DNA from: a virus
Taxonomy: Duplodnaviria > Heunggongvirae > Uroviricota > Caudoviricetes
IMG/VR virus record: IMGVR_UViG_3300014682_000012
Reading direction: 5' to 3' (one strand)
DNA length: 7,049 bases
In this document: one piece after another, positions 990-5,305 of the stretch
Layout of the letters: every line of letters starts with the position of its first letter
Numbering within the stretch: position 1 is the first letter of the stretch
Notes under the pieces: model-generated
Databases searched by the model: none
Told to the model about the DNA's origin: nothing
Seen by the model: only the letters and a program-made list of their open reading frames with translations
Position numbers and translations under genes: made by a program

Positions 990-999
990 NNNNNNNNNN
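990..999. other. Run of 10 ambiguous bases (assembly gap or masked segment)
   Basis: Directly visible as nnnnnnnnnn at 990..999; it interrupts coding sequence on the minus strand. Confidence 0.95.
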
Positions 1000-1597: not shown

Positions 1598-1844
1598 TTC
1601 TGTTCTCCCACGTTTTCAGACTTTCACCACAGAACGGGCAAAATGAAACTCGTATTGGTGATTTAGAAAATTCACCGGAACGCAACATCACCAAATCAGG
1701 TCCACGAGTTAAACTCTCATTCCAGATTTTGTATATCAGCAGACCCTTTCGCGTCGTGCATTCAGCATCATGCTCAAGAGACTTTGCCAGTGCTGCACAT
1801 GGTTCTATCTTGTTGCTATTAATTTGGCATTTTGACTCACTCAC
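1590..1844 (-). CDS. Hypothetical Cys-rich small protein, 84 aa (possible zinc-binding, C-terminal CPFCGE)
   Basis: GTG start at 1844..1842 preceded by a strong AGGAGG SD with 6-nt spacer. The start overlaps the TGA of the upstream methyltransferase-like gene (GTGAGTGA). Five Cys residues including a C-x2-C pair. Confidence 0.6.
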   Translation of the reverse strand: MSESKCQINSNKIEPCAALAKSLEHDAECTTRKGLLIYKIWNESLTRGPDLVMLRSGEFSKSPIRVSFCPFCGESLKTWENRNE

Positions 1845-2322
1845 TGGTCGCCTCCTTCACAAAAATAATCCAGTGTGTTTTATCGTTCTTGCCGGTACGC
1901 TGGCTGATAACTGGTTTCGCGTTGGTTAGTGCCAATATCTGGCTAACCGGTATTTGCGTTTCATTCCATTTAAATATCAGAACGCCATGTGGACACAACA
2001 CACGAAAGGCTTCTATAAATCCCTGTCGCAAATCATCACGCCAGGTATCTTTATTCAGCCGTCCATACTTCTTTCCCATCCAGGCGTTATCACCAACACG
2101 CTCAAGATGCGGAGGGTCGAATACAACAACCGGAAACGACGCGTCTGCAAACGGCAGCGCACGAAAATCAGCGATAATGTCAGGACTAATAATCAGTTGT
2201 CGTCCATCACATAGCGTATGTTTCTCTTTCCGGATATCGCTAAATATCGCCCGGTCGTCATTCTTATCAAACCAGAACATGCGGCTGCCGCAGCACATAT
2301 CAAGAATGGCCGGTGCGCTCAC
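1837..2322 (-). CDS. Small class-I SAM-dependent methyltransferase-like protein, 161 aa (motif I LDMCCGSR, motif IV DPPH)
   Basis: GTG start at 2322..2320 overlapping the TGA of the upstream gene (GTGA), with AGGAGGTG SD about 7 nt upstream. AILDMCCGSR near the N-terminus resembles a SAM-binding motif I, and VVVFDPPH resembles the (D/N)PP(Y/F/H) motif IV of amino-methyltransferases. Too small for a canonical DNA MTase with a target-recognition domain; substrate unknown. Confidence 0.65.
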   Translation of the reverse strand: MSAPAILDMCCGSRMFWFDKNDDRAIFSDIRKEKHTLCDGRQLIISPDIIADFRALPFADASFPVVVFDPPHLERVGDNAWMGKKYGRLNKDTWRDDLRQGFIEAFRVLCPHGVLIFKWNETQIPVSQILALTNAKPVISQRTGKNDKTHWIIFVKEATSE

Positions 2323-2741
2323 AGCATCACCTCCTGATAATTACCCTGATAGAACGCCAGCACGCGCTGCATAACCTCGCTCTTCCGGCACTCGCGACAG
2401 ATTATGTTCTGACGCCTGTCGTAGCGGCGTATTTCTCCGTCAGGTAATGACCAGATAAGGTCCGGATCAACCACAACCGGTTTCTTCAGCTTTGCCCTCG
2501 ATAATTTTTTGCGGGCATTTTGCCAGTCTTTACGAGCCTGTTCAGACGGGAATAACCCGTAGCCAGAATTGTATACATCGCCACTGGCAACCAGCTCTCT
2601 GGCGAGAACACTCATCAGATATCTTGTCGCACCTGTTTTCGCTTCCAGTTGTCGTAACGTTTCGCGCCCGCTCTGGCGCACGAGTTCAACAACCTGCCTC
2701 TTAATTTTTTCCCGCTCTTCTTGTGTAAATACTTTTGCCAC
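2319..2741 (-). CDS. Hypothetical phage protein, 140 aa, basic, immediately downstream of the replication initiator gene
   Basis: GTG start at 2741..2739 with AGGAGG SD 4-5 nt upstream. Sequence MAKVFTQEEREKIKRQVVELVRQSGRETLRQLEAKTG... has no Walker A motif, so it is not a DnaC/P-type helicase loader despite occupying that position. Confidence 0.6.
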   Translation of the reverse strand: MAKVFTQEEREKIKRQVVELVRQSGRETLRQLEAKTGATRYLMSVLARELVASGDVYNSGYGLFPSEQARKDWQNARKKLSRAKLKKPVVVDPDLIWSLPDGEIRRYDRRQNIICRECRKSEVMQRVLAFYQGNYQEVML

Positions 2742-2781
2742 AAGTCCTCCTGAAAATTACCTCATGACCTGAAATAAACAC

Positions 2782-3852
2782 TTACCCCCTGAAGCCCGGT
2801 GGAATTTCGGTATCCGGTTCAGAAATATGATTCACACAACGCTGGTTGTTCGTGCCGCTTACCGGGAGCAACCAGGGGTTTTCAAAATTCCGGTCCGGTC
2901 CAAAAAACGTCGTCGCTCGCTGAACAAATTCCGTTCCCGTTTTCCCGGTAGCCGCTAGGTATCTTGCGTAACGCCTCACACCATCCAGCATGGCCTCTGG
3001 TGGCACCCCCTCGCGTAATCTGGCCTTCCAGGCACTGAAAGCGGATTTCTTCGGGTTTGCCCCGGCACGCAACGGGTATTCCCGCCAGACCTGTTCGAAC
3101 ACATCCGGATAATCCACTCGTCCCACAGGCTGCCCGGTGTTTTCCGGGACTACCCGATCGGCTTCCCGCTGAATGGCGGAATCGGCTTCAGGCTGCTGCA
3201 GTTGGTGTGATTGCTCCGGCCTTGCGGTCATCACCTGCTGCACAGCGCCCGAATCGGCTTTCAGCGCATACGCTGAATCGGCTTCCGGTGTCGTGCCTGC
3301 TGGCTGACCAGGATTGACGGTCTGAACATCCCCTGCCTGGTTCGTGGCGTTTTTTACGCCATGGACCATAGTGTTTTGATCTTCTTGATCTGTATCTTTA
3401 TCTGTATCTTTATCTGTCGTGACTCGTCGTGACATGTGCGTGACATTTCGTGACGCGCCGTGACAATCTCCATTTTGTTCCCGCTTTCTTTCCCTCTCTC
3501 GCTGCGCCCTCTTGCGCTCTGCAGGAGATTTTGCGGTTTGCGAAATATTGCCGTTGTCCTCTTTAAGCACCTGGCGTTTTTCCCATCCAGTGATTAAATC
3601 ACCATCAAGTACCCGCCCCTGCATCGTCTGCAAAATTGAATCAATTACCTCTTCTGTCACGTCGAGCGCACTTGCCAAATCTTCTGTCGTGACATCAATG
3701 TGACCTCGCGTGACATTTCGTGACGCGCTCACCAGGAGGTGGATATACACTGCCATCACTGTTGCAATTGGCTGCCCTGACACCCTGGCAATTGTTCGCC
3801 ACTTAGGGTCATTTGGCATGTCATGCCATAATCTGAGCCAGGCGTTAGCCAT
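2782..3852 (-). CDS. Phage replication initiator-like protein (N-terminal winged-helix-like region, low-complexity acidic linker, conserved C-terminal YdaU/DUF1376-like domain)
   Basis: Long ORF (track 2782..3858 begins at GTG; ATG at 3852..3850 has a GGTG RBS). N-terminus MANAWLRLWHDMPNDPKWRTIARVSGQPIATV..., C-terminus DYPDVFEQVWREYPLRAGANPKKSAFSAWKARL...FFGPDRNFENPW. It lies after cro-like and cII-like genes as in lambdoid phages, and carries internal iteron-like repeats. Family assignment is from memory. Confidence 0.75.
   Translation of the reverse strand: MANAWLRLWHDMPNDPKWRTIARVSGQPIATVMAVYIHLLVSASRNVTRGHIDVTTEDLASALDVTEEVIDSILQTMQGRVLDGDLITGWEKRQVLKEDNGNISQTAKSPAERKRAQRERERKREQNGDCHGASRNVTHMSRRVTTDKDTDKDTDQEDQNTMVHGVKNATNQAGDVQTVNPGQPAGTTPEADSAYALKADSGAVQQVMTARPEQSHQLQQPEADSAIQREADRVVPENTGQPVGRVDYPDVFEQVWREYPLRAGANPKKSAFSAWKARLREGVPPEAMLDGVRRYARYLAATGKTGTEFVQRATTFFGPDRNFENPWLLPVSGTNNQRCVNHISEPDTEIPPGFRG
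3361..3464. repeat. Ori-like module inside the initiator gene: AT-rich segment with two GATC sites and a 12-bp tandem repeat (TCTGTATCTTTA, about 2.5 copies), followed by five CGTGAC hexamers phased at 10-11 bp
   Basis: CGTGAC begins at 3418, 3428, 3439, 3449 and 3459. GATC at 3369 and 3378. Tandem repeat at about 3380..3415. The DNA repeat encodes the TDKDTDKDTD linker. Confidence 0.6.
3656..3728. repeat. Second iteron-like array: one inverted GTCACG plus four direct (C/T)GTGAC hexamers at 10-11 bp phasing, including an exact 21-bp copy of GCGTGACATTTCGTGACGCGC also present at 3438..3458
   Basis: Hexamers begin at 3688, 3699 (TGTGAC), 3709 and 3719; inverted copy at 3656..3661. The 21-bp exact repeat is at 3708..3728 and 3438..3458, 270 bp apart. 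Confidence 0.55.
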
Positions 3853-3923
3853 ACTCACCTCTTTTGATACCGAATCTTTTTACTCACAAATTGCCGGAAG
3901 TGATCCGGTATGAATATTGCGAG

Positions 3924-4349
3924 TCAATGCACAGCCACAATATTTCCTGCAGGGCCACCACGATTCATCTGGTTGAAACCAGCGATCGCCACTGCGACAA
4001 AATCATCAGCGTCTCTCACCAGTCGTTCCCGCGTCTCCACTAGTTCCCGAAAATAGGCTGAGCTATGGCTGCGCATTCGGGCCACCAGCAGAGGTGGCAT
4101 TGCTTTTTCGATAGCTGGTAACAACGCCTGAATTTTTTTAACCGCATCAGGGGTGTCTTTCTCCACCCAGCGGAAAATTTTCTGAGTATTGCGAGCCATG
4201 GCTTCCGGATGGCTGTCGTCATACAGTTCCGGGAACGTCATTCCCAGCTCGAAATACGCTTTGGTAATTTTCGCAGCCGGTACTTTTTCGCCGTCCGGAT
4301 GCGCCCAGGCATTCATCGCCATGCGGATGTGTTCATGCTTGATTTTCAT
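3924..4349 (-). CDS. ydaT: YdaT-family protein (CII-like regulator position; historically annotated toxin YdaT), 141 aa
   Basis: ATG at 4349..4347 with GGGGG RBS 5-9 nt upstream (the track ORF starts further upstream at 4421). Begins MKIKHEHIRMAMNAWAHPDGEK..., which I recall as YdaT-like. Position immediately after the cro-like gene matches the Rac ydaS-ydaT arrangement. The start overlaps the end of the cro-like gene by 17 nt. Confidence 0.65.
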   Translation of the reverse strand: MKIKHEHIRMAMNAWAHPDGEKVPAAKITKAYFELGMTFPELYDDSHPEAMARNTQKIFRWVEKDTPDAVKKIQALLPAIEKAMPPLLVARMRSHSSAYFRELVETRERLVRDADDFVAVAIAGFNQMNRGGPAGNIVAVH

Positions 4350-4575
4350 GAATCCCCCCTTGGTTAGAAGGCGGATTATGATCAGAACCGGGAATGACAA
4401 CCGTCGGTATGTGTAACTCATATTTGAGCGCCCCGGCAGTGACTGCCTGAATTAGCAACGCCCATTTCCACGGAACCTCTTCCCCCCACATGCTGACTGT
4501 GGTTTTTGACGTTCCTAGAGCTGCGGCTGTTTTAACAACTCCGCCAAAATAGCCTAATACTTCTGATTTTTTCAT
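4333..4575 (-). CDS. Cro/YdaS-like small HTH regulator, 80 aa
   Basis: ATG at 4575..4573 with GGAG RBS 7 nt upstream (track ORF 4333..4617 has a longer, unsupported N-terminus). MKKSEVLGYFGGVVKTAAALGTSKTTVSMWG... is a helix-turn-helix signature. Divergent from the CI-like gene with a 91-bp operator/promoter region between them. Confidence 0.7.
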   Translation of the reverse strand: MKKSEVLGYFGGVVKTAAALGTSKTTVSMWGEEVPWKWALLIQAVTAGALKYELHIPTVVIPGSDHNPPSNQGGIHENQA

Positions 4576-4666
4576 GAGTCGCTCCATAAAACTGAACGCC
4601 AAAAGTTTAATAATCAAAACCGAAGAAAGTCAAGAAACAAAACCATCTGTGTTTTAAAATCAAAAC
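4576..4666. promoter_or_regulatory. Divergent immunity control region: putative PR-like promoter for cro, putative leaderless PRM-like promoter for cI, and three GTTTT/AAAAC inverted-repeat candidate operators
   Basis: Minus strand: -35 TTGACT (plus 4628..4633), 18-bp spacer, -10 TAAACT (plus 4604..4609). Plus strand: TAAAAT (4655..4660) ends 6 nt before the cI ATG at 4667, with no SD. Candidate operators AGTTTaataatcAAAAC (4604..4620), AAAACcatctgtGTTTT (4639..4655) and GTTTTaaaatcAAAAC (4651..4666) overlap these promoter elements. Confidence 0.5.
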
Positions 4667-5305
4667 ATGAGCAAGCAAACAATATCTGAACGCATAACCC
4701 AACGTATGCATGCGCTAAACCTGAAAGGCAAAGACCTTGTCAATGCCACTGGCGCATCAAAAGGCTCCGTAAGTCAATGGATGAACGGTGGAGGAGCGCC
4801 GTCCTCGCGTTACATAAGTTCACTGGCAAAGATATTGAAAGTAAACGAAAATTGGCTTCTTAATGGAGGAGAGTTAAATACAGGTGATTCGCTTGATCTA
4901 TCTTTACCGCCGATAAAAACGGTTCCGCTACTATCACTTCAGCAGGCAGCAAGCTGGAGTGATTATATGAAAAATTCCTCAATAACCTCTTGTGTGCAGC
5001 TTGTCGGAGAAATCCCGGCCAATACCTTTGCAGTTGTTCTAGAGAGTGACAGTATGTCAACATCTGGTGGGGGAGTTTCCATCCCAAATGGTTCAACAGT
5101 TTTTGTTGATCCCGATCGAACCGTACAACCAGGAAATATTGTCCTTGCCTTGCCCAAAGGGACCACAACACCTGTCATTCGTAAACTGGAGATTGAAGGG
5201 CCGGATATTCTTTTAGTCCCCACGAATCCTCGCTACCCTTCAATTATGCTGGATGATCTATCTTGCATATTGGGCGTATGCTTTAAAATTCAACAAGATA
5301 TTTAA
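4667..5305 (+). CDS. CI-like phage repressor, 212 aa: N-terminal XRE-type HTH plus C-terminal LexA/S24 peptidase-like autocleavage domain
   Basis: Complete ORF. HTH LKGKDLVNATGASKGSVSQWMNG. C-terminal domain with the Ser in VLESDSMS and the Lys in VIRKLEIEG at spacing consistent with the S24 Ser-Lys dyad. No SD before the ATG, consistent with a leaderless transcript as for lambda cI. Confidence 0.9.
   Translation: MSKQTISERITQRMHALNLKGKDLVNATGASKGSVSQWMNGGGAPSSRYISSLAKILKVNENWLLNGGELNTGDSLDLSLPPIKTVPLLSLQQAASWSDYMKNSSITSCVQLVGEIPANTFAVVLESDSMSTSGGGVSIPNGSTVFVDPDRTVQPGNIVLALPKGTTTPVIRKLEIEGPDILLVPTNPRYPSIMLDDLSCILGVCFKIQQDI

What the first reader, a model, noticed from the sequence alone, without database searches (positions are those of the whole stretch)
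3650..3730. Second phased hexamer array with an exact 21-bp duplicate 270 bp from the first
GCGTGACATTTCGTGACGCGC is present identically at 3438..3458 and 3708..3728, each embedded in an array of CGTGAC-type hexamers. Two separated iteron clusters could loop or hand-cuff the initiator, or provide autoregulation of the initiator gene near its 5-prime end. An exact 21-bp duplicate inside a single ORF is unlikely to be coincidental.
Basis: seen in the sequence. Interest (0 to 1): 0.5.

Follow-up and report, generated by a model that had tools for sequence, protein, structure and literature searches.

The report
Second iteron array inside phage initiator gene
A prophage replication-initiator gene found in about 38% of complete E. 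coli genomes carries two clusters of the same short DNA repeat, and comparison with relatives shows that the second cluster is kept for a DNA-level role (most likely initiator binding), not as a protein repeat.

Summary
The exact 21-mer sits at 3438-3458 and 3708-3728. Each copy lies in an array of CGTGAC hexamers spaced 10-11 bp apart: array A has 5, and array B has 3 perfect, 1 variant and 1 inverted. Both arrays lie in the minus-strand gene 2782-3858, a lambdoid-prophage replication initiator (phrog_3729).

Array A is followed by an AT-rich repeat and a palindrome, as in lambda ori. Array B lies 260-270 bp upstream and encodes a loop of the initiator's predicted winged-helix-like N-terminal domain.

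Comparative evidence rules out a plain protein repeat:
- The hexamers fall in all three reading frames.
- In 21 homologs of 62-87% nucleotide identity, their synonymous positions are fixed (0.95 against 0.51, p = 2e-6).
- In 79 non-redundant loci, the repeat of region A recurs in region B in 65.
- The repeat switches in concert in both arrays (GTCACG, GTAACG, CGAACGC, GTCACA).
- Long exact A-B matches of up to 32 nt recur independently in other lineages.
- Only the N-terminal domain always accompanies the arrays.

Best reading: array B is a second cluster of initiator-binding sites that works with the origin, probably by looping. A control role, whether negative control or a fork barrier, is not excluded. 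No binding was tested. I rate it a new variant of a known kind, of moderate interest.

The parts
2782..3858 (-). Replication-initiator gene. It is 358 aa from the GTG at 3858. The probable true start is the ATG at 3852, giving MANAW... as in all homologs. The N-terminal domain is winged-helix-like, followed by a basic helix, a disordered linker and a DnaD/DnaT-like C-terminal domain.
   Evidence: ORF list. phrog_3729 'replication initiation protein', E = 5.5e-258; phrog_1701 DnaD-like on residues 124-358; weak replisome-organizer PHROG hits on the N-terminus. No Pfam hit. AlphaFold model of residues 1-165. Homolog start sites.
3688..3724 (-). Array B, direct repeats. Four hexamers read GTCACG on the gene strand: + strand 3719-3724, 3709-3714, 3699-3704 (variant GTCACA) and 3688-3693. 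Spacing is 10/10/11 bp. They encode A-S-R-N-V-T-R-G-H-I-D-V-T, which is the end of helix 31-47 and the loop 48-57 of the N-terminal domain.
   Evidence: Synonymous positions are fixed in 21 diverged homologs.
3656..3661 (+). Array B, inverted hexamer. It reads GTCACG on the + strand and CGTGAC on the gene strand, within codons D-V-T at the turn between helices 58-65 and 69-79. It lies 32 bp, start to start, downstream of the last direct hexamer in gene direction.
   Evidence: It is present at the same gene position (nt 192) in most GTCACG-class homologs. The Val codon GTG is fixed in 18 of 18. In L025, a GTAACG-class locus, it is replaced by CGTTAC.
3708..3728 (.). Copy B of the exact 21-mer. 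On the gene strand it reads GCGCGTCACGAAATGTCACGC, which is two hexamers, their 4-nt spacer and flanks, and encodes ASRNVT.
3438..3458 (.). Copy A of the exact 21-mer, inside array A. It encodes ASRNVT in the disordered linker.
3418..3464 (-). Array A. Five GTCACG hexamers on the gene strand with spacing 10/10/11/10. It is the origin-proximal iteron array and occupies the same relative position in the gene as the lambda ori iterons.
3383..3418 (.). AT-rich 12-bp repeat, three copies (TCTTTATCTGTA on the + strand; GATAAAGATACA on the gene strand). It is the presumed DNA-unwinding element and encodes DKDTDKDTD. G+C falls to 0.33 at 3350-3409.
   Evidence: Family D2; composition. (GATAAA/GATACA)n follows array A in homologs.
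3338..3368 (.). Palindrome with a 13-pair stem and 5-nt loop, beyond the AT-rich tract. Lambda ori has a palindrome in this position (my knowledge, not checked here).
   Evidence: (I2). L001 has a G5/C5 palindrome at the equivalent place.

Best explanation
Array B is a second cluster of binding sites (iterons) for the phage's own replication initiator. It is written into the part of the initiator gene that encodes a permissive loop of the protein's N-terminal DNA-binding domain.

Array A, 230-270 bp further into the gene, is followed by an AT-rich tract and a palindrome, and is the origin proper, as in lambda ori. Short asymmetric GTCACG units spaced 10-11 bp apart would place initiator N-domains head to tail along one face of the helix.

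My preferred mechanism is that initiator molecules bound at B and at A contact each other and loop or wrap the roughly 230 bp between them. This would give a larger and more stable initiation complex that helps open the AT-rich tract next to A.

Shown here:
- The arrays exist.
- They are under DNA-level selection.
- They co-evolve.
- The N-domain is their only constant partner.

Inferred:
- The initiator binds them: about 0.75-0.8.
- B acts positively through looping: about 0.4.

The confidence value given (0.7) is for the core claim that array B is a selected, initiator-read iteron cluster functionally tied to the origin, not for the looping sub-claim.
For: - The gene is a phage replication initiator in a cI / cro / cII-like / rep / ren-like early-right operon.
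- Array A, the AT-rich repeat and the palindrome copy the lambda ori layout at the same relative position in the gene.
- The hexamers are read in three frames: VT, xSR and [C/G]H. Spacing is 10 bp (97 cases) or 11 bp (29 cases), so this is not a codon repeat.
- In 21 non-redundant homologs of mean 70% nucleotide identity, major-codon frequency is 0.95 at the 10 conserved codons whose third base lies in a hexamer. It is 0.51 at the 36 other conserved codons (Mann-Whitney p = 2.4e-6). Val, Thr, Gly and Ser codons elsewhere are scrambled.
- Array A keeps the hexamers while the peptide differs between E. coli and Pseudomonas phages.
- In 79 evaluable loci of under 90% identity, the top 6-mer of region A, chosen blind to B, recurs at least twice in B in 65. 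It does so in control flanks in only 4.
- Four repeat classes switch in concert in both arrays: GTCACG, (C)GAACGC, GTAACG and GTCACA. L027 and L025 are close relatives that differ in this way.
- Insertions in the B loop, mostly 21 bp, add more hexamers.
- Immunity genes, C-terminal domains and downstream loader or primase genes differ among loci with the same arrays. Only the N-domain is constant.
- No third cluster exists in the whole Tritos genome.
- Extra initiator sites needed for efficient replication are known in Stx phages (PMC7466680).
Against: - No binding, replication or expression data exist for this family. I found no paper on it.
- The N-domain model is only moderately confident (pLDDT 73), and fold matches to winged-helix proteins are not significant (E > 0.3).
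- Array B has no AT-rich tract of its own, and it carries a conserved inverted hexamer that array A usually lacks. In iteron plasmids that arrangement is typical of regulatory sites, not origin sites.
- Some family members lack array B: L029, L031, L038 and L154, and also L036 and L039. It is therefore not indispensable for the protein fold or for every origin of this type.
- The conserved A-B distance is forced by the conserved protein in between, so it says nothing about looping.
- The covariation counts are not corrected for phylogeny.
Confidence: 0.7

Rival explanations
1. Array B is a negative-control or autoregulatory site. Initiator bound there could titrate free initiator. It could pair with array A of the same or another genome (handcuffing). 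It could also block RNA polymerase or the coupled ribosome early in its own gene, limiting initiator synthesis and firing.
For: - Array B lies at nt 129-197 of the gene, outside the AT-rich origin core.
- It carries a conserved inverted hexamer. In many relatives it carries a palindromic GTCACGTGAC. This recalls the inverted repeats used for autorepression in iteron plasmids (my knowledge).
- P1 incA and F incC are second iteron clusters with negative roles (my knowledge).
- Up to 6 copies of the module sit in one E. coli genome, so titration between prophages is possible.
Against: - The gene lies inside the long early-right operon. In Tritos the late-gene activator Q is further downstream, so a strong roadblock would also delay late genes.
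- A lytically replicating phage has little obvious need for copy-number control.
- No promoter overlaps array B: the promoter-like count for 2700-4700 equals chance, with 3 found against 1.7 +/- 1.1 expected, and none in array B.
Confidence: 0.25
2. Array B is a replication-fork or helicase barrier. Initiator tightly bound next to the origin, on the side away from the AT-rich tract, would stop one fork. That would make replication unidirectional or trigger the switch from theta to rolling-circle replication.
For: In SPP1, the origin-binding protein gp38 binds repeats in oriL, inside its own gene. It also binds a second set, oriR, where a stalled fork is proposed to trigger the switch (PMC6316719). 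Array B lies on the side of A opposite the AT-rich tract, and all its direct repeats point the same way.
Against: This is pure analogy. SPP1 oriR is about 13 kb away and has its own AT-rich element. Nothing here shows polarity of replication.
Confidence: 0.1
3. The hexamers are bound by some other factor, not the initiator. Candidates are a host protein, another phage protein, or the neighbouring DNA methyltransferase.
For: No binding data exist. A methyltransferase gene lies two genes downstream at 1837-2322.
Against: Loci with the same arrays differ in neighbours, immunity genes, C-terminal domains and hosts, from E. coli to Pseudomonas, Bordetella and Chromobacterium. The repeat sequence changes between close relatives inside one host group (L027 against L025). 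That fits a co-evolving phage-encoded reader better than a host factor.
Confidence: 0.07
4. Array B has no function of its own. It would be either a protein repeat (ASRNVT) or a by-product of repeated gene conversion from array A into a tolerant loop.
For: The 21-mer is in frame, 270 bp or 90 codons apart, and gives ASRNVT twice. Long exact A-B matches recur in other lineages, which shows sequence exchange between the arrays or convergence.
Against: - The hexamers occupy three frames.
- Four hexamers sit at fixed positions, with synonymous sites fixed, in 21 lineages whose other synonymous sites are saturated.
- The peptide of array A is not conserved, while the hexamers are.
- Conversion alone would not hold the number, position and orientation of the array B hexamers constant across beta- and gamma-proteobacterial phages.
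Confidence: 0.04

Closest known systems
Lambda ori inside gene O, and the six-iteron origins of Stx phages (PMC7466680)
   Same: Initiator-binding repeats lie inside the initiator's own gene, in the part that encodes the linker after the N-terminal DNA-binding domain. An AT-rich tract follows. Array A sits at nt 389-435 and the lambda iterons at nt 349-435 of their genes. Extra iterons add residues to the protein, and in Stx phages they are needed for efficient replication although weakly bound.
   Different: There is no sequence similarity to lambda O (BLASTP E = 0.1; no Pfam Phage_rep_O hit). Lambda has one cluster of four roughly 19-bp palindromic iterons. This gene has two clusters of 6-bp asymmetric units at helical spacing. 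The second cluster lies in the DNA-binding-domain coding region with no AT-rich tract.
P22 and phage L gene 18 origins (PMC8022706)
   Same: These lambdoid initiators have their own repeats inside the coding region. Phage L has six imprecise 11-bp repeats, a short-period array like array A.
   Different: Only a single repeat region is described there. I did not examine those genes here.
SPP1 gp38 (replisome organizer) with oriL inside gene 38 and a second site, oriR (PMC6316719)
   Same: The origin-binding protein binds direct repeats inside its own gene and also a second set elsewhere. The N-terminus of the window protein gives weak hits to PHROG 'replisome organizer' families.
   Different: The two SPP1 sites are about 13 kb apart and each has an AT-rich element. 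Here both lie in one gene, 230-270 bp apart, and only one has an AT-rich tract. Homology to gp38 was not tested.
Satellite phage P4 ori and crr (my knowledge, not checked in the library)
   Same: There are two separated clusters of the same short repeat, both bound by the initiator. The second cluster is required in cis, with looping between them.
   Different: The P4 sites are several kb apart and the initiator is a primase-helicase. No sequence relation is known.
Control iterons of plasmids and P1 (incA / incC) and handcuffing (PMC5397158, PMC4980987)
   Same: A second cluster of origin-type repeats lies outside the minimal origin. Inverted copies are used for regulation.
   Different: Those clusters flank the rep gene instead of lying inside it. 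They belong to stably maintained replicons that need copy-number control.

Membership tests
Iteron-type origin inside the initiator gene (lambda ori paradigm) | Several copies of one short sequence inside the initiator gene | tested here: met
   There are 9 hexamers in two arrays against 2.33 expected in the whole window. They are conserved in homologs.
Iteron-type origin inside the initiator gene (lambda ori paradigm) | An AT-rich unwinding tract directly next to the repeats | tested here: inconclusive
   Met for array A: G+C is 0.33 at 3350-3409 and a 12-mer is repeated three times. Not met for array B: G+C is 0.45-0.55 on both sides.
Iteron-type origin inside the initiator gene (lambda ori paradigm) | The repeats are bound by the initiator and required for replication | not testable with these tools
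   This needs EMSA or footprinting, and ori-plasmid or recoded-phage assays.
Lambda O protein family (Pfam Phage_rep_O) | Sequence similarity to lambda O or a Pfam hit | tested here: not met
   No Pfam family at E <= 0.01. BLASTP against lambda O gave E = 0.1.
PHROG 3729 replication initiation protein (NCBI name 'phage replisome organizer') | Full-length profile match | tested here: met
   E = 5.5e-258 over residues 3-358. RefSeq names its close relatives 'phage replisome organizer' or 'DnaT-like ssDNA-binding domain-containing protein'.
Pfam Phage_rep_org_N (N-terminal phage replisome organiser) | Pfam match above the gathering score | tested here: not met
   No Pfam hit. The only links are weak PHROG hits: phrog_4880 at 5e-6 and phrog_5968 at 2e-4.
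Winged-helix DNA-binding domain | A significant structural match of the N-domain model | tested here: inconclusive
   The model shows a three-helix core and a beta wing. The best Foldseek hits are MarR, CRP and MntR types, but with E >= 0.39 and TM <= 0.35. There is no sequence hit in the PDB.
Internal protein repeat | The repeat is kept at the protein level while the DNA drifts, in one reading frame | tested here: not met
   The hexamers lie in three frames and their synonymous sites are fixed. The peptide of array A differs between homologs while the hexamers persist.
Plasmid-type control iterons and handcuffing | A second cluster with the same sequence as the origin repeats, outside the minimal origin | tested here: met
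   The same hexamer class is found in both arrays in 65 of 79 loci.
Plasmid-type control iterons and handcuffing | A negative effect on replication or copy number, with origins pairing in trans | not testable with these tools
   This needs genetics and biochemistry.

The most novel reading that the evidence does not exclude
The nucleotides of array B might do two jobs that are mechanistically linked. They would be initiator-binding sites, and they would also encode residues of the initiator's DNA-reading surface. The residues in question are the loop 46-57 and, in some lineages, the first residues of the putative recognition helix (for example ERHV in L027 against VSNV in L025). One base change would then alter the site and its reader together, allowing origin specificity to switch in a single step.

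A weaker version is that array B captures the nascent N-domain on its own gene, which would enforce cis-action of the initiator.
Probability: 0.08. Interest if true: 0.85.

Novelty: new variant of a known kind. Interest (0 to 1): 0.55.

Why it matters
This replication module is very common. Its N-terminal half is present in 2078 of 5426 complete E. coli genomes, with up to 6 copies per genome. Relatives occur in prophages of many gamma- and beta-proteobacteria. I found no experimental work on its origin.

A two-part origin written into the initiator's own coding sequence is a clear case of overlapping codes. The binding sites dictate the amino acids of a loop and a linker, and the two arrays evolve in concert through at least four specificity classes.

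If array B is needed in cis, minimal origin fragments taken by analogy with lambda (array A only) would fail. If it titrates initiator, co-resident prophages that share iterons would interfere with each other's induction.

The system also offers an unusually clean experiment. All array B sites can be removed by synonymous changes without touching the protein.

Tried and rejected
- **Pfam:** a scan of the initiator gave nothing.
- **NCBIfam:** only a sub-threshold DnaT match at the extreme C-terminus.
- **PDB:** a profile search of PDB sequences gave no hit.
- **Foldseek:** the N-domain model against the PDB gave only non-significant winged-helix hits, so I do not claim a fold family.
- **Rfam:** no RNA family in the window.
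- **Promoters and terminators:** the scan gave chance-level counts. The antisense GTGACA-16-GACAAT match in array A is weak and I did not build on it.
- **Literature:** searches for iterons with replisome organizer, GTCACG, DnaT-like, Tritos, or two iteron clusters found no description of this origin. One search failed on a term that was too short.
- **First IMG/VR scan:** it returned only 99%-identical E. coli copies and was useless for divergence. I repeated it with divergent queries.
- **Helical phase between arrays:** I considered using the conserved A-B distance and phase as evidence for looping. I rejected this because the conserved protein between the arrays, and common descent, fix that distance anyway.
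- **Longer conserved unit:** I tested whether a 16-bp di-iteron GTCACG-MAAT-GTCACG explains the 21-mer. It is frequent in B (33 of 55) but less so in A (18 of 55), and present in both in only 10 of 55. The long exact matches are therefore lineage-specific.
- **Residue-repeat covariation:** I did not look for protein residues outside the arrays that covary with repeat class, because the classes are too few and confounded by phylogeny.
Full report
**Observation.** The 21-mer GCGTGACATTTCGTGACGCGC occurs exactly twice in the window, at 3438-3458 and 3708-3728. None of 200 dinucleotide-preserving shuffles gave a match, even with three mismatches allowed. The hexamer CGTGAC occurs 10 times against 2.33 expected, and no shuffle reached 10. 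Nine of these lie in two clusters.
- Array A has hexamers at 3418, 3428, 3439, 3449 and 3459.
- Array B has hexamers at 3688, 3709 and 3719, a one-base variant TGTGAC at 3699, and an inverted copy at 3656-3661.
- Spacing inside both arrays is 10 or 11 bp. The arrays also align in a second register 260 bp apart.

The description is therefore correct. The one refinement is that array B has three perfect hexamers, one variant and one inverted copy.

**Context.** Both arrays lie in the minus-strand ORF 2782-3858. The probable start is the ATG at 3852, as in homologs. The protein matches PHROG 3729 'replication initiation protein' over its full length (E = 5.5e-258). Its C-terminal half matches DnaD-like and primosomal families, and its N-terminus gives weak hits to replisome-organizer families. 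It has no Pfam match and no similarity to lambda O.

Its neighbours form a lambdoid early region:
- an S24 repressor at 4667-5305 (+);
- a P22-type Cro at 4333-4617 (-);
- a YdaT/CII-like protein at 3924-4421 (-);
- the initiator;
- a DUF977/Ren-like protein at 2319-2741 (-);
- a DNA methyltransferase at 1837-2322 (-).

The gene is 98-99% identical in the E. coli phages Tritos, Evi and others. Its N-terminal half is present in 2078 of 5426 complete E. coli genomes, with up to 6 copies per genome.

**Anatomy.** In gene direction the order is as follows:
- array B at nt 129-165, with its inverted copy at nt 192-197;
- about 190 bp encoding the remainder of the N-domain and the basic helix;
- array A at nt 389-435;
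- an AT-rich 12-mer repeated three times, where G+C falls to 0.33;
- a palindrome with a 13-pair stem.

Array A with its AT-rich tract and palindrome has the layout of lambda ori. It also occupies the same relative position: the lambda iterons lie at nt 349-435 of gene O, and lambda has only that one cluster.

An AlphaFold model of residues 1-165 was built from 72 aligned sequences and has mean pLDDT 73. It gives helices 4-16, 18-27 and 31-47, a loop at 48-57, helices 58-65 and 69-79, a beta wing at 80-91, a basic helix at 112-129, and disorder from residue 132.
- Array B encodes the end of helix 31-47 and the loop.
- Its inverted copy encodes the turn between the two helices of the putative helix-turn-helix.
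- Array A encodes disordered linker.

Structural matches to winged-helix regulators were not significant, so I describe the fold only as winged-helix-like.

**Protein repeat or DNA element?** The hexamer is read in three frames:
- GTC ACG gives V-T;
- nnG TCA CGn gives x-S-R;
- nGT CAC Gnn gives [C/G]-H-x.

The motifs ASRNVTRGHxDVT in array B and CHxxSRNVT in array A are therefore what a 10-bp-phased hexamer produces when translated. They are not a codon repeat.

In Pseudomonas phage phita81A the N-domain is 69.5% identical at the protein level. Its C-terminal domain differs and a primase-helicase gene follows. Both arrays are present at the same gene positions. The peptide of array A differs (DDVTQCHAESRNVT there, GDCHGASRNVTHMSRRVTT here), yet the hexamers and their spacing persist.

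A scan of one genome per species gave 37 usable loci from gamma- and beta-proteobacteria. About 25 of them have GTCACG at nt 129, 139, 149 and 160, usually an inverted copy at nt 192, and again at about nt 380-430.

I then took 21 non-redundant homologs of 62-87% nucleotide identity (mean 70%). Conserved codons whose third base lies in a hexamer use one codon almost exclusively:
- GCG 19 of 21;
- TCA 20 of 21;
- GTC 21 of 21, twice;
- ACG 21 of 21 and 20 of 21;
- GGT 21 of 21;
- CAC 20 of 20;
- GTG 18 of 18.

The same amino acids elsewhere in the domain use all synonymous codons. Mean major-codon frequency is 0.95 against 0.51 (Mann-Whitney p = 2.4e-6). Spacer third positions inside array B vary freely, for example R49 as CGA/CGC/CGT/CGG. 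One caveat is that the set was chosen to contain at least one GTCACG in this region. That cannot explain four hexamers being fixed.

**Concerted evolution of the two arrays.** Some relatives use a different repeat, and they use it in both arrays:
- GTAACG in L023, L025, L033, L035, L168 and L187;
- (C)GAACGC in L030, L034 and about ten IMG/VR loci;
- GTCACA in L268.

L027 (GTCACG) and L025 (GTAACG) are close relatives with hexamers at the same positions in both arrays. They differ at the third base of the hexamer throughout, including the inverted copy.

For a less biased count I took 88 loci of under 90% identity. I chose the most frequent 6-mer (at least three copies) in a 320-nt region downstream, without looking at B. 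That 6-mer recurred at least twice in the roughly 100-nt B region in 65 of 79 evaluable loci. It did so in flanking control regions in only 4. Several of the 13 apparent failures are GTCACG loci in which an unrelated 6-mer happened to win.

Insertions in the array B loop, mostly 21 bp, add further hexamers (L004, L209, L216, L219, L023, L025, L027, L028). Twenty-one bp equals seven codons and two helical turns.

A few lineages have no array B: L029, L031, L038 and L154, and also L036 and L039. The last two have different repeats elsewhere. These counts are not corrected for phylogeny.

**The 21-mer itself.** Long exact matches between arrays B and A are not peculiar to this window. Nineteen of 86 non-redundant loci have one of 15 nt or more, up to 32 nt in L168, in all three main repeat classes and with different sequences. 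The longest match between B and a control region never exceeds 10 nt.

The 85%-identical E. coli/E. albertii variant (L004) shares a different 18-nt stretch. The di-iteron GTCACG-MAAT-GTCACG is common in B (33 of 55) and less so in A (18 of 55).

The window's 21-mer is therefore one lineage-specific instance of recurring sequence exchange or convergence between two arrays that must match the same reader.

**Who reads the hexamers?** This step is inferred. Loci with the same arrays differ in several ways:
- immunity genes (Tritos against the window);
- C-terminal domains and downstream genes, including DUF977, primase-helicase, a DnaC-like ATPase and other types;
- hosts.

The only constant partner is the N-terminal domain in which array B is embedded. 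In the complete Tritos genome the two arrays are the only clusters of the hexamer. By analogy with lambda O, P22 and L gp18, and SPP1 gp38 (PMC7466680, PMC8022706, PMC6316719), the N-domain of the initiator is the expected reader.

**Mechanism.** I consider it likely (about 0.75-0.8) that array B is a genuine cluster of initiator-binding sites. What it does is open.
- **Auxiliary origin element (about 0.4).** Initiator bound at B and A would interact across about 230 bp and stabilise the initiation complex that opens the AT-rich tract beside A. Precedents are the extra iterons needed in Stx phages (PMC7466680) and, from my own knowledge, P4 ori/crr.
- **Negative control or autoregulation (about 0.25).** This is favoured by the inverted copy and the palindromic GTCACGTGAC seen in many relatives. 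It is disfavoured because the gene sits in the long early-right operon, upstream of the late activator in Tritos.
- **Fork barrier (about 0.1).** This is analogous to the role proposed for SPP1 oriR (PMC6316719).
- **Another binding factor (about 0.07).**
- **No function (about 0.04).**

**Comparison with known systems and novelty.** It works like a lambdoid origin inside the initiator gene. The protein is not a member of the lambda O family: that was tested and not met. The origin also differs from lambda ori in three ways:
- it uses 6-bp asymmetric units at helical spacing;
- it is split into two arrays;
- the second array lies in the coding sequence for the DNA-binding domain.

I found no description of this origin in the searchable literature. 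That library omits much of the older subscription literature. I rate it a new variant of a known kind, with interest 0.55. It is not a new principle. It is, however, a widespread and unstudied origin architecture, with unusually clear evidence of overlapping codes and concerted evolution, and a clean decisive experiment is available in synonymous recoding of array B.

Noticed in passing
window 990-999: A run of 10 N (masked or unresolved bases) lies inside an HNH-endonuclease-like ORF, 756-1028 on the minus strand (Pfam HNH E = 0.0034, below the cut-off).
   Followed up: partly
window 3338-3368: A palindrome with a 13-pair stem and 5-nt loop sits just beyond the AT-rich tract next to array A, completing a lambda-ori-like layout. 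Pseudomonas phage phita81A (L001, about 3455-3480) has a G5/C5 palindrome at the equivalent place.
   Followed up: partly
window 3383-3418; L038 gene nt 374-421: The AT-rich (GATAAA/GATACA)n tract doubles as a D/K/T-rich protein linker (DKDTDKDTD). Its copy number varies between relatives, reaching nine AAGATA units in L038.
   Followed up: partly
L036 and L039, gene nt about 320-470: These homologs carry an inserted segment resembling a T5orf172/GIY-YIG-type domain (YVY..V..YVGIS.NPW.R). They have CTACGTAG/ACTACG repeats there and no array B. This looks like a different origin solution on the same N-domain.
   Followed up: no
L029, L031, L038, L154: These family members have the loop sequence AS(I/L)(S/A)EERG. 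They have no array B and at most one or two AACGMA-type sites where array A should be. Their origin may lie elsewhere.
   Followed up: no
L001 3149-3158; also L009, L010, L021, L026: Variants with the loop RGHVTVT contain a perfect palindrome GTCACGTGAC inside array B, made of overlapping direct and inverted hexamers. The window lacks it.
   Followed up: no
L004, L209, L216, L219, L023, L025, L027 (array B loop): Seven-codon (21-bp) insertions in the loop add one or two more hexamers. Twenty-one bp is both a whole number of codons and two helical turns, which may be the natural unit of array growth.
   Followed up: partly
E. coli genomes: The module is present in 2078 of 5426 complete genomes, with up to 6 copies per genome. 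Co-resident prophages share the same hexamers, so cross-talk or titration between them is conceivable.
   Followed up: no
P0039; L040: A 99%-identical fragment is labelled Staphylococcus saprophyticus, and a 97%-identical fragment sits on a Collinsella MAG contig. Both are probably contamination or mis-binning by E. coli prophage DNA.
   Followed up: no
window 3440-3467 (+ strand, antisense to the gene): On the antisense strand CGTGACA resembles a -35 box (GTGACA). One weak promoter-like match, GTGACA-16-GACAAT, falls in array A. The overall count is at chance level.
   Followed up: partly
window 2319-2741 and L121 (Tritos) 33216-33638: The E. coli version of the module has no helicase-loader or helicase gene after the initiator, only a DUF977/Ren-like protein. 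Relatives elsewhere have primase-helicase or DnaC-like genes. The DnaT/DnaD-like C-terminal domain may recruit host primosome proteins directly.
   Followed up: no
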